Shown: one piece after another, positions 15,712 to 21,748 of the stretch
Numbering within the stretch: position 1 is the stretch's first letter
Layout of the letters: every line of letters starts with the position of its first letter
Notes under the pieces: generated by a model
Databases searched by the model: none
What the model was told of the DNA's origin: nothing
Seen by the model: only the letters and a program-made list of their open reading frames with translations
Program-made: the position numbers and the translations under genes
From: the human T2T-CHM13v2.0 reference genome, Homo sapiens
Length of the DNA stretch: 64,000 nucleotides
Strand: one strand, 5' to 3'
NCBI RefSeq assembly: GCF_009914755.1
Contig: NC_060928.1

Positions 15712-18472
15712 TTTTTTAAATTATACTTTAAGTTCTAGGATCCATGTGCAGAACATGCAGGTTTGTTAAATAGGTATACACGTGCCATGATGGTTTGCTG
15801 CACCAGGAGATGGCATCCCATTGTGGTTTTGATTTGCATTTGTCTAATGACTAGTGTTGATGAGTTTTTTTTATATGTTTATTGGCCACATAAATGTCTT
15901 CTTTTGAGAAGTGTCCGTTCATATCCTTTGCCCATTTTTTGATGGGTTTGTTTGTTCTTCTTGTAAATTTGTTTAGGTTCTTTGTAGATTCTGGATATTA
16001 GCCCTTTGTCAGATGGATGATTGCAAAAATTTTCTCCTATTCTGTAGGTTGCCTGTTCATTCTGATGATAGTTTCTTTTGCTGTGCAGAAGCTCTTTAGT
16101 TTAATTAGATCCCATTTGTCAATTTTGGCTTTTATTGTGATTCCTTTGGTTGTTTTGATCATGAAGTCTTTGCCCATGCTGATGTCCTGAATGATATTGC
16201 CTAGGTTGGCTTCCAGAATTTTTTATGGTTTTAAATCTCACATTTAAGTCTTTAATCTATCTTGAGTTATTTTTTGTATAGCATGTAAGGGAGGTGTCCA
16301 GCTTCAGCTTTCTGCATATGGCTAGCCAGTTTTCCCAACACCATTTGGTAAATAGGTCAGTAAATAGGGAATTCTTTCCCCATTGCTTGCTTTTGTCAGG
16401 TTTGTCAAAGATCAGATGGTTTTAGATGTGTGGCGTTATTTCTGAGGCCTCTGTTCTGTTCCATTGGTCTATATATCTGTTTTGGTAGCAGTACCATGCT
16501 GTTTTGGTTACTGTAGCCTTGTAGTATAGTTTGAAGTCAGGTAGCATGATGCCTCCAGCTTTGTTGTTTTGGCTTAGGATTGTCTTGGCAATGCGGGCTT
16601 TTTTGGTTCCATGTGAAATTTAAAGTAGGTTTGTTCTAATTGTGTGAAGAAAGTCAACGGTAGCTTGAAGGGGATAGCATTGAATCTATCAATTACTTTG
16701 GGCAGTATGACCATTTTCACAATATTGATTCTTATTATCCATGAGCTTGGAATGTTTTTCCATTTGTTTGTGTCCTCTATTATTTCCTTGAGCAGTGGCT
16801 TGTAGTTCTATTGAAGATGTCCTTCACATCCCTTGTAAGTTGTATTCTTAGGTATTTTCTTCTCTTTGCAGCATTTGTGAATGGGAGTTCACTCATGATT
16901 TAGCTGTTTGTCTATTATTGGTGTATAGGAATGTTTGTGATTTATGCACACCGATTTTGTATCCTGAGACTTTGCTGAAGTTGTTTATCAGCTTAAGGAC
17001 ATTTTGGGCTGAGATGATGGGGTTTTCTAAATATACAATTGTGTCATCTGCAAACGGAGACAATTTGATTTCCTCTCTTCCTATCTGAATACCTTTATTT
17101 CTTTCTCTTACCTGATTGCCCTGGCCAGAACTTCTAATACTATGTTGAATAGGAGTGGTGAGAGAGGGCATCCTTGTCTTGTGCTGGTTTTCAAAGGGAA
17201 TGCTTCCAGCTTTTGCCCATTCATTATGGTATTGGCTGTGGGTTTGTCATAAATAGCTCTTATTATTTTAAGATACGTCCCATCAATACCTAATTTATTG
17301 AGAGTTTTTAGCTCTTATTATTTTGAGATAAGTTTCATCAATATCTTGTTTATGGAGAGTTTTTAGCATGAAGGGGTGTTGAATTTTATGGAAGGCCTTT
17401 TCTGCATCTATTGAAATAATCATGTGATTTTTATCATTGGTTCTGTTTTTGTGACAGATTATGTTTATTGGTTTGCATTTCTTGAACCAGACTTGCATAT
17501 CAGGAATGAAGCTGACTTGATGGTGGTGGATAAGCTTTTTGATGTGCCACTGATTTCGATTTGCCAGTATTTTATTAAGAATTTTCGCATTGATGTTCAT
17601 GGGGGATATTAGCCTGAAATTTTCTATTTTTGTTGTGTCTCTGTGAGGTTTTAGTATCAGGATCATGCTGGCCTCCTAAAATGAGTTAGGGAGGAGTCCC
17701 TCTTTTTCTATTGTTTGGAATAGTTTCAGAAAGCATGATACCAGCTCTTCTTTGTAACTCTGGTATAATTTGGCTGTGAATCTGTCTGGTCCTGTACTTT
17801 TTTTGGTTGGTAAGCTATTAATTGCTGCCACAATTTCAGAGCCTGTTATTGGTCTATTCAGGGATTCGGCTTCTTCGTGGTTTAGTCTTGGGATGGTGTA
17901 TGTGTCCAGGAATTTATTCATTTCTTCTAGATTTTCTAGTTTATTTGCTTAGAGGAGTTCATAGTATTCTCTGATGGTAGTTTGTATTTCTGTGGAATCA
18001 GTGGTGATATCTCCTTTATTATTTTTTATTTTGTCTATTTGATTCTTCTTTTTTTCTTCTTTATTAGTCTGGCTAGGGGTCTGTTTTGTTAATCTTTTCA
18101 AAAAACCAGCTCCCAGATTCTTTGATTTTTTGAAGGGTTTTTGTGTCTCTATCTCCTTCGGTTCTTCTCTAATCCTAGTTATTTCTTGTCTGCTGCTAGT
18201 TTTTGAATTTGTTTGCTCTTACTTCTCTAGTTCTTTTAATTGTGATGTTAGGGTGTCGATATTAGATTTCCCTCATTCTCCTATGGGCATTTAGTGCTAT
18301 AAATTTCCCTCTAAACACTACTTTAGCTGTGTCCCAGAGATTCTGGTGCATGTCTTTTTGCTCTCATTGGTTTCAAATAACTACTTTATTTCTGCCTTAA
18401 TTTTGTTATTTACCCAGTAGCCACTCCGGGGTAGGTTGTTCAGTTTTCATGTAGTTGTGTGGTTTTGAGTGA
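15712..18472 (-). mobile_element. L1PA7-like element, left arm of the palindrome (ORF2 from late EN region to 3' end; most of the 3' UTR deleted at ~15804)
   Basis: 3' end ttatactttaagttctaggatccatgtgcagaac... and ORF2 fragments including the RT motif FADD (16893-17171) and the Z-region peptide [12 protein letters not shown]. Confidence 0.95.
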
Positions 18473-18838
18473 CAACGTACCAGTATCTCTGAGACACAGC
18501 TGAAGCAGTGTTTGTTTGAACAACCCTTCAAAAAAAAATCAGTGAAATCAGGAGCTGCGTTTTTGAAAAGATTAACTAAATAGATGGACCACTAGCCAGA
18601 ATAATAAGAAAAGAGAGAAGAATCAAATAGATACAATAAAAAGTGACAAAGGGGATACCACCACTGATCTCACAGAAATATAAACTACCGAGAGAGAATA
18701 CTATAAATACCTCTATGAAAATAAACTAGAAAATCTAGAAGAAATGGATAAATTCTTGGACAGTTACGCTCTGCCAAGACTAAACCAGGAAGAAGTCGAA
18801 TGCCTAAATAGACCAATAACAAGATCTGAAATTGTAGC

Positions 18839-19799: not shown

Positions 19800-21748
19800 T
19801 GTAGCAGTAATTAATAGCCTACCAACCAAAAAAAACCCAGGGCCAGAGAGATACAGAGCTGAATTATACCAGAGGCACCAAAAGGAGGTGGTAACCTGCC
19901 TTCTGAGACTATTCCAAACAATAGAAAAAGAGGGACTCCTCCCTAACTCATTTTAGGAGTCTAGCATGATCCTGATACCAAAACCTGACAGAGACACCAC
20001 AAAAATAGAAAATTTCAGGCCAACACCTCTGATGAACATTGATGCGACAATCCTCAATAAAATACTGGCAAGCTGAGTCCAGCAGCACATCAAAAATCTT
20101 ATCTTCCACGATCAAGTCAGCTTCATCCCTGGGATGCAAGTCTGGTTCCACAAACACAAATCAATAAACGTAATCCATCACAAAAACTGAATCAATGATA
20201 AAAACTACATGATTATCTCAATAGATGCAAAAAAGGCCTTTCATAAAATTCAACACCTGTTCATGCTAAAAACTCTCCATAAACAAGGTACTGATGAAAC
20301 TTACCTCAAAGTAGTAAGAGCTATTTAAGACAAACCCACAGCCAATATCATACTGAATGGGTAAAAGCTGGAAGCATTCCCTTTGAAAACCAGCACAAGA
20401 CAAGAATGCCCTCCCTCACCACTCCTATTCAACATAGAATTGGAAGTTCTGGCCAGGGCAATCAGGTAAGAGAAAGAAATAAAGGTATTCAGATAAGAAG
20501 AGAGGAAATCAAATTGTCTCTGTTTGCAGATGACATGACTGTATATTTAGAAAACCCCATCATCTCAGCCCAAAATGTCCTTAAGCTGATAAACAACTTT
20601 AGCAAAGTCTCAGGATACAAAATCGGTGTGCATAAATCACAAACATTCCTATACACCAATAATAGACAAACAGCTAAATCATGAGTGAACTCCCATTCAC
20701 AAATGCTACAAAGAGAAGAAAATACCTAAGAATACAACTTACAAGGGATGTGAAGGACATCTTCAATAGAACTACAAGCCACTGCTCAAGGAAATAAGAG
20801 AGGACACAAACAAATGGAAAAACATTCCAAGCTCATGGATAATAAGAATCAATATTGTGAAAATGGTCATACTGCCCAAAGTAATTGATAGATTCAATGC
20901 TATCCCCTTCAAGCTACCATTGACTTTCTTCACACAATTAGAAAAAACCTACTTTAAATGTCATATGGAACCAAAAGAGAGCCCACATTGCCTAGACAAT
21001 CATAAGCAAAAAGAACAAAGCTGGTGTCACCATGCTATCTGACTTTAAGCTATACTATAAGGCTACAGTAACCAAAACAGCGTGATACTGCTACCAAAAT
21101 AGATATATAGACCAATGGAACAGAACAGACCTCAGAAATAATCCCACACATCTACAACCATCTGATCTTTGACAAATCTGACAAAAACAAACAATGGAGA
21201 AAGGATTCCCTATTTACTAAATGGCATTGGGAAAACTGGCTAGCCATATGCAGAAAAGTGAGATTTCTTTTTCTATTTAATTTCTTAAAAATTATTGCTT
21301 ACCATTAAGCAAAAACAATAAGACTCAAAGTGCAGTATCTTATGTTAACACTGTTTGGATTCCTTGGAAAAGAATATAGCTATAAACTAAAATGAATGGT
21401 AAAATGGACATCATTCGTTATATAAGATAAAATAGCATTTCTTTTTGAAGTACCTTGAGAGTAACAAAGTATTATGTTGATTTCTCTTGAATTAATCACT
21501 AATAGTTTCAGTTTTATAGCATTTTAAAGAGTAATATGATTAATGAGCTATTTTAACACTGAAAAGTACTTTAACAAAGTATTAGACTATATCCGAAGAC
21601 AATTTAGTAAGTAATATCTCTACATTTTAAGGGCATATGATTTAAGACATATGCTAGTACTTAGTTTTAGTATTTAGTGTTTTGTATTATCTGAACCAAC
21701 AGACACAATAAAATCTTAATTGTGTATTAAATAAAATTATTTAATATT

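What the first reader, a model, noticed from the sequence alone, without database searches (positions are those of the whole stretch)
16618..20959. Sharply bounded ~420-bp near-identical tract between the arms: recent gene conversion
Seen by manual comparison: 16618-17037 (reverse complement) versus 20540-20959 differ at only about 5 of 420 positions and share the frameshifting deletion. Immediately outside (20960 onward versus 16617 and below) there are about 15 differences in ~105 bp. The next ~220 bp inward differ at about 13 sites, and the innermost part is patchy (roughly 80-95% by eye). Inference: stepwise identity strata with abrupt edges indicate repeated arm-to-arm gene conversion in a small retrotransposon-derived palindrome, a process best known from the large X/Y palindromes.
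Basis: partly seen in the sequence, partly recalled or inferred. Interest (0 to 1): 0.75.

Follow-up and report, generated by a model that had tools for sequence, protein, structure and literature searches.

The report
Gene conversion inside a LINE-1 palindrome
In a gene-free stretch of human chromosome 4, two back-to-back inverted halves of a dead LINE-1 element are 99% identical over 420 bases but only 85-90% identical elsewhere, most likely because one half was copied onto the other a few million years ago, a clean example of a known process.

Summary
Observation confirmed. 16618-17037 (reverse complement) and 20540-20959 differ at 5 of 420 positions, against 15 of 105 just outside and about 15% in the inner arms; 0 of 100,000 permutations came close. 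The arms are head-to-head LINE-1 ORF2 fragments with about 2 kb of overlap and a solo LTR5_Hs in the right arm. Polarised against 29 paralogous L1 copies, the tract holds 21 shared derived substitutions and 3 shared indels against 5 arm-specific differences (about 1 shared expected by chance); the innermost 297 sites hold none. Post-insertion arm-to-arm copying is therefore well supported. Refinements: only the outer edge is abrupt, shared markers run inward to 17110, and 'recent' means about 3-19% of the palindrome's age. Repeated conversion is likely, not proven: 21 shared sites outside the tract (about 6 expected, 2 are ORF2 stops) and a 55-bp duplication with one converted-looking copy support it, but those sites are not significantly clustered. 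No GC bias, unlike Y palindrome P6. Conversion between neighbouring transposons is already in print. No ape or population data could be reached. Real, tidy, modest novelty.

The parts
15712..18471 (-). Left arm: 5'-truncated LINE-1 with short poly(A) at its left end, an internal deletion of about 600 nt near 15804-15807, ORF2 broken
   Evidence: blastn to paralogs; 17298-17675 matches ORF2p residues 511-632, E 2.5e-50
18472..21260 (+). Right arm: inverted second copy of about 2 kb of the same L1 ORF2 region, no poly(A); starts 119 nt downstream (L1 sense) of the left arm's 5' end with no spacer
   Evidence: 20770-20973 matches ORF2p residues 784-851, E 3.4e-29
16618..17037 (-). Homogenised tract, left copy (4 of the 5 residual differences are derived here)
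20540..20959 (+). Homogenised tract, right copy
   Evidence: best other genomic match among 40 scored is 93%
17038..17134 (-). Fuzzy inner edge (partner 20443-20539): 3 shared substitutions incl. an ORF2 stop, 1 shared deletion, 5 private differences
17258..17367 (-). 55-bp tandem duplication in the left arm; copy 17313-17367 shares derived bases with the right arm, copy 17258-17312 does not
17673..17724 (-). 52-column identical patch (partner about 19908-19959) holding a shared ORF2 stop: candidate older short conversion
   Evidence: change-point fit, codon effects
18472..18521 (+). Central junction: 42-nt L1 piece, short filler, then about 170 nt missing relative to the left arm; about 1 nt microhomology
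18839..19799 (+). Solo LTR, 961 bp, with 6-bp target-site duplication (18833-18838, 19800-19805), in the right arm only; matches HML2.LTR251 (LTR5_Hs, 5.73 My) by position, strand and span
   Evidence: position matched through a coordinate offset that rests on recalled gene coordinates

Best explanation
Two inverted, back-to-back pieces of one old LINE-1 share a 420-bp near-identical tract, likely because homology-directed repair copied one arm onto the other a few million years ago (non-allelic gene conversion). Shown: the arms are L1 ORF2 fragments joined head to head; the tract carries many shared, otherwise rare, ORF2-disabling changes; the rest of the arms diverged mostly independently. 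Inferred: (1) one insertion event (twin priming with an unusually long internal duplication, or fold-back of the cDNA) made the palindrome; (2) the arms decayed apart to about 15%; (3) earlier, shorter or older exchanges probably left scattered shared sites and the converted-looking copy of the 55-bp duplication; (4) a later break was repaired off the other arm, 3.5 kb away on the same chromatid or its sister, over 420-520 bp, probably without flipping the interior. Direction of the last copy is not resolved. No function is implied.
For: 5 of 420 vs 15%. 21 shared derived substitutions + 3 shared indels vs 5 private with 29 outgroups picked by an inner-arm query; 19 with 22 tract-picked outgroups; 22 with 50 pooled (one probably alignment jitter beside an indel); chance expectation 1.2. 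Shared tract changes are 18 non-synonymous, 2 stops, 2 synonymous: decay, not the purifying pattern expected of an active source element. Trees: tract stem 0.062, tips 0.015/0.000, support 1.0; innermost segment not sisters. No third copy explains it: next best of 40 scored matches is 93%. In inner-arm searches the partner arm is not among the 40 listed hits. Arm-private states are not subfamily signal: no outgroup shares more than 8 of 91 right-arm or 7 of 65 left-arm states. Flanks gave only self matches.
Against: No ape orthologue or second human haplotype could be examined, so timing, direction and inversion status are untested. No convincing target-site duplication (best 7-nt T-rich match), so the single-insertion origin is inferred from geometry only. 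A 2-kb internal duplication is far above the 22-bp median for twin priming. No GC bias: shared 6 W>S vs 10 S>W, like private 51 vs 72. Shared sites outside the tract are not significantly clustered (P 0.085-0.54) and are transversion-rich (14 of 21, P=0.008 vs paralog baseline, post hoc), which simple copying does not predict.
Confidence: 0.7

Rival explanations
1. The tract is the conversion scar of a crossover between the arms that inverted the 3.5-kb interior (17038-20539), including the LTR5_Hs.
For: Inverted repeats, including an L1PA3 pair, flank validated human inversions (PMC3961182 passages). A 420-520 bp tract is on the long side for non-crossover conversion (recalled). Same sequence footprint as the best explanation.
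Against: Private load is higher in the right arm both inside (71 vs 52 of 919) and outside (19 vs 7 of 289) the tract, with no swap; weak, since adjacent copies need not have their own rates. Crossover resolution is rare in Y palindrome P6 (abstract). Not found in the supplementary tables searched, which are incomplete.
Confidence: 0.15
2. A replication template switch between the inverted arms, not break repair, overwrote one arm.
For: Template switching homogenises inverted-repeat arms (search listing and abstract starts). The 55-bp duplication begins and ends at a short repeated motif, as out-of-register re-annealing would give. A 520-bp inverted copy with 1 difference sits in another fetched L1 (L046).
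Against: The papers listed concern short-range events (only listings seen); here the copies are 3.5 kb apart with an LTR between them. In-register replacement with no junction scar at the outer edge fits homology-directed repair.
Confidence: 0.1
3. Separate question, older layer only: the shared sites outside the tract come from a palindrome formed after some decay (DNA-level inverted duplication of an already mutated L1, or a decayed source RNA), so there was one conversion, not several.
For: Background of 21 shared in 1305 sites is statistically compatible with uniform spread (P 0.085-0.09 for gap and 500-site scans). No clear target-site duplication.
Against: 0 shared in the innermost 298 vs 14 in the next 501 (Fisher P=0.0016, bins chosen after looking). 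In the 55-bp duplication one copy shares 4 derived bases with the right arm (17354, 17347, 17335, 17331; outgroups carrying them 0, 0, 3, 0 of 50) and the other has none.
Confidence: 0.3
4. Assembly collapse or polishing error copied one arm onto the other.
For: Only one assembly was seen.
Against: 5 residual differences remain; the 420-bp tract is flanked within 20-100 bp by dense arm-specific differences and is far shorter than the long reads used for this assembly (general knowledge); the inner edge is graded, not a clean switch.
Confidence: 0.02

Closest known systems
Non-allelic gene conversion between neighbouring transposons (Aleshin and Zhi 2010, seen only as cited in PMC8230782 and PMC6598467; passages)
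   Same: Two related retrotransposon copies within 10 kb share non-diagnostic derived mutations.
   Different: Those passages concern Alu; here L1 arms of probably one insertion, inverted, with a 420-520 bp tract.
Y-chromosome palindrome P6 arm-to-arm conversion (PMC3723533; abstract and outline)
   Same: Arm-to-arm homogenisation of an inverted repeat.
   Different: P6 exceeds 99.9% identity with frequent, GC-biased, mean 2-kb tracts; this is an autosomal 2-kb arm pair at about 85% with a local tract and no GC bias.
Twin-priming L1 insertion with internal duplication (10.1101/2024.08.27.596794, passages; PMC12350158, passages)
   Same: Poly(A)-bearing piece joined at its 5' end to an inverted piece that overlaps it; 283 of 1,703 5'-inverted insertions had such a duplication.
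   Different: Median duplication there is 22 bp; here about 2 kb, and no clear target-site duplication.
Inverted duplication by self-annealing of L1-induced DNA ends (10.1101/2024.12.14.628481; passages)
   Same: Hairpin priming with little microhomology makes an inverted copy with a small spacer (119 nt here).
   Different: The passages seen describe duplication of flanking genomic DNA in cells and tumours; here the L1 body itself, in the germline, long ago.

Membership tests
Non-allelic gene conversion tract | Bounded segment of paralog identity above flanks and chance | tested here: met
   5 of 420 vs 15%; 0 of 100,000 permutations
Non-allelic gene conversion tract | Shared derived mutations absent from other paralogs | tested here: met
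   21 substitutions + 3 indels; 1.2 expected
Non-allelic gene conversion tract | Tree topology or branch lengths change across the tract boundary | tested here: met
Non-allelic gene conversion tract | Paralogs closer than orthologs in outgroup species; non-reciprocal transfer | not testable with these tools
   no ape genomes held (the genome has no relatives here)
X/Y-type palindrome under concerted evolution | Arm identity above 99% along the arms | tested here: not met
   85-93% outside the tract
X/Y-type palindrome under concerted evolution | GC-biased conversion | tested here: not met
   shared 6 W>S vs 10 S>W; private 51 vs 72; small numbers
Twin-priming L1 with internal duplication | Poly(A) piece joined 5' to 5' with an inverted, overlapping, non-polyadenylated piece | tested here: met
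Twin-priming L1 with internal duplication | Target-site duplication around the whole insertion | tested here: inconclusive
   only a 7-nt T-rich match; old element
Twin-priming L1 with internal duplication | Microhomology at the inversion junction | tested here: inconclusive
   about 1 nt
Repeat-mediated inversion polymorphism | Both orientations of the interior among haplotypes or species | not testable with these tools
   no second haplotype; not found in tables searched
HML-2 solo LTR5_Hs | About 960 bp, TG...CA ends, 5-6 bp target-site duplication, close to other LTR5 copies | tested here: met
   961 bp, 6-bp duplication; 39 other hits at 96-97%; catalogue row HML2.LTR251

The most novel reading that the evidence does not exclude
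Kilobase-scale inversion-duplications made at L1 insertion act as autosomal mini-palindromes whose arms keep exchanging sequence for tens of millions of years even at 85% identity, leaving datable strata, out-of-register duplications and a transversion-rich shared mutation spectrum; surveyed genome-wide in ape T2T assemblies they would give a clock-calibrated, selection-free assay of conversion rate against divergence and distance.
Probability: 0.35. Interest if true: 0.5.

Novelty: new member of a known kind. Interest (0 to 1): 0.3.

Why it matters
It is a clean, neutral record of non-allelic conversion between arms that had already diverged about 15%, with hundreds of paralogs as built-in outgroups and a dated LTR (5.7 My) as an internal clock. 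Such events bias divergence-based ages of repeats and can accompany small inversions that move an LTR5_Hs. No gene or annotated element is affected, so importance for phenotype is probably nil.

Tried and rejected
Intrinsic conservation of the segment: rejected, paralog pairs differ 8.8% there. The first outgroup set was picked by the tract and is biased toward it (5.9% pairwise in the tract), so a second set was drawn with an inner-arm query and a third with the right arm. Conversion from a third L1: rejected, best other match 93% of 40 scored from 6213 candidates. Arms from different subfamilies: no support. Segmental duplication: flanks gave only self matches (that search skips very common words). 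GC-biased conversion: not seen. Four-step strata: not preferred by BIC. Target-site duplication: not found. Known inversion at this place: none in PMC2603318 supplement (2 chr4 rows, neither here), PMC12350158 supplements (4 of 4 prefix hits on other chromosomes, file cut when stored) or PMC12350169 supplements (0 hits, one file unreadable). The largest inversion catalogue I wanted (Porubsky 2022), Ostertag and Kazazian 2001 and Aleshin and Zhi 2010 are not held. Paper searches listed no title about this locus or about conversion inside L1 inversion-duplications; listings only, so absence from print is not established. The L1 subfamily was not determined (L1PA7/8-like by divergence and 3' end is recalled, no call).

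Full report
Observation. Self-comparison of the window shows inverted homology between 16309-18142 and 18519-21256, interrupted on the right by a 961-bp LTR. Arm against arm, 16618-17037 and 20540-20959 differ at 5 of 420 positions; 16617-16513 at 15 of 105; 17260-17038 at 13 of 223; the two inner segments at 68 of 452 and 45 of 303. None of 100,000 permutations of 166 mismatches over 1758 columns produced so clean a window (lowest 13), nor with only the outer 1003 columns.

Anatomy. Both arms are LINE-1 ORF2 (PDB ORF2p residues 511-632 and 784-851). The left arm runs on the minus strand from 18471 to a short poly(A) at about 15712, with about 600 nt missing near 15805. The right arm starts at 18472 with no spacer, 119 nt downstream in L1 coordinates of where the left arm stops, loses about 170 nt after 42 nt, and ends near 21260 without poly(A). 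This is the shape of a 5'-inverted L1 with internal duplication; 283 of 1,703 such somatic insertions carried one, median 22 bp (10.1101/2024.08.27.596794, passages), so 2 kb is extreme, and fold-back of the cDNA is an equally good reading. No convincing target-site duplication survives. The LTR has a 6-bp target-site duplication, is 97% identical to its best paralog, and matches HML2.LTR251, LTR5_Hs, 5.73 My (4.52-6.94) in the supplement of PMC3228705 by strand, span and position (the position match uses an offset built on recalled coordinates).

Polarisation. I fetched paralogous L1 copies from the same genome with three queries. With all 29 copies from the inner-arm query, the tract has 21 shared derived substitutions, 3 shared indels, 4 left-only and 1 right-only differences in 412 scorable sites. 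The innermost 297 sites have 0 shared and 45 private. With 22 of 28 tract-picked copies the count was 19; with 50 of 76 pooled loci long enough to use, 22. Chance sharing, scaled from 1220 outgroup pairs, predicts 1.2. Paralog pairs differ by 8.8% in this segment, so it is not simply conserved. The shared changes are mostly non-synonymous and include two stops: they arose after the element died, then were copied. Trees agree: sisters with support 1.0, stem 0.062, tips 0.015 and 0.000 in the tract; not sisters in the innermost segment.

Edges and strata. The outer edge is sharp (last shared marker 16629, dense private differences from 16617). The inner edge is not: shared markers occur at 17069, 17085, 17094 and 17110, and 17134-16618 has 10 differences in 517, four within 19 bp. 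BIC slightly prefers three segments to four.

Repeated conversion. Outside the tract, 21 of 1305 sites are shared against about 6 expected (P=1.4e-6), including two ORF2 stops. One copy of the left arm's 55-bp tandem duplication shares four derived bases with the right arm while the other has none, and a 52-column identical patch at 17673-17724 holds one of the stops. These favour earlier exchanges. Against: un-binned scans do not reject uniform spread (P 0.085, 0.54, 0.094), which a palindrome formed after some decay would give; the 0 of 298 vs 14 of 501 contrast (P=0.0016) uses bins chosen after looking. I put earlier exchanges at about 0.7. The shared outside sites are transversion-rich (14 of 21 vs 38.5% in paralogs, P=0.008, post hoc); I cannot explain this.

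Age and direction. 5 of 420 is 1.2% (95% interval 0.4-2.8%), or 0.08 (0.03-0.19) of inner-arm divergence. With the LTR at 5.7 My and 3% from its nearest paralog, and human-chimpanzee divergence near 1.2% (recalled), the event is a few million years old, about as old as or younger than the LTR; human specificity is not shown. Direction is unresolved. There is no GC bias.

Mechanism. Most likely homology-directed repair off the other arm without inversion (0.7); crossover with inversion of the 3.5-kb interior (0.15) and replicative template switching (0.1) leave the same footprint; artefact is improbable (0.02). Steps shown: structure, identity profile, shared derived decay. Steps inferred: single-insertion origin, repair pathway, number of events, dates.

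Comparison. It works like palindrome arm conversion but fails two defining features of X/Y palindromes (overall identity above 99%, GC bias; PMC3723533 abstract). The nearer precedent is conversion between transposons within 10 kb, described for Alu (passages of PMC8230782 and PMC6598467). I found no listing for this locus in the tables and searches named under Tried and rejected; those were incomplete, the main inversion catalogue was not held, and bioRxiv supplements were not available.

Verdict. Real feature, core interpretation upheld with corrections, new member of a known kind, no gene nearby. Interest 0.3.

Noticed in passing
L046:799-1318 and L046:1835-2354 (G000:C5:134151551-134155002): Inside another old L1, a 520-bp inverted copy of a segment 516 bp downstream sits between collinear L1 pieces; the two copies differ at 1 of 520 though 7-11% from paralogs: likely a very recent inverted duplication, possibly polymorphic.
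   Followed up: partly
window 16309-18142 vs 18519-21256: Both arms are more diverged from the paralog majority (6.4% and 7.9%) than the 50 outgroups (median 4.5%, maximum 7.8%); outgroups are best hits, so partly selection bias.
   Followed up: partly
window 16347-16358: 12-bp tandem duplication private to the left arm, near its outer end.
   Followed up: no
window 34160-34872: About 710-bp AT-rich, self-complementary tandem array with many long inverted pairs (91-95% complementary), a candidate cruciform-forming repeat.
   Followed up: no
L047 and L052: Two fetched L1 copies on contigs C15 and C14 share 44 derived sites, as a segmental duplication would give; kept among the outgroups.
   Followed up: no
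L017 and L025: Two fetched L1 copies show ordinary 5' inversions with short gaps rather than overlap, a contrast to the 2-kb overlap here.
   Followed up: no
window 10000-14041, 26322-28728, 38714-42660: Several older L1 fragments in both orientations, 67-80% alike, with no near-identical tract among the blastn hits.
   Followed up: no
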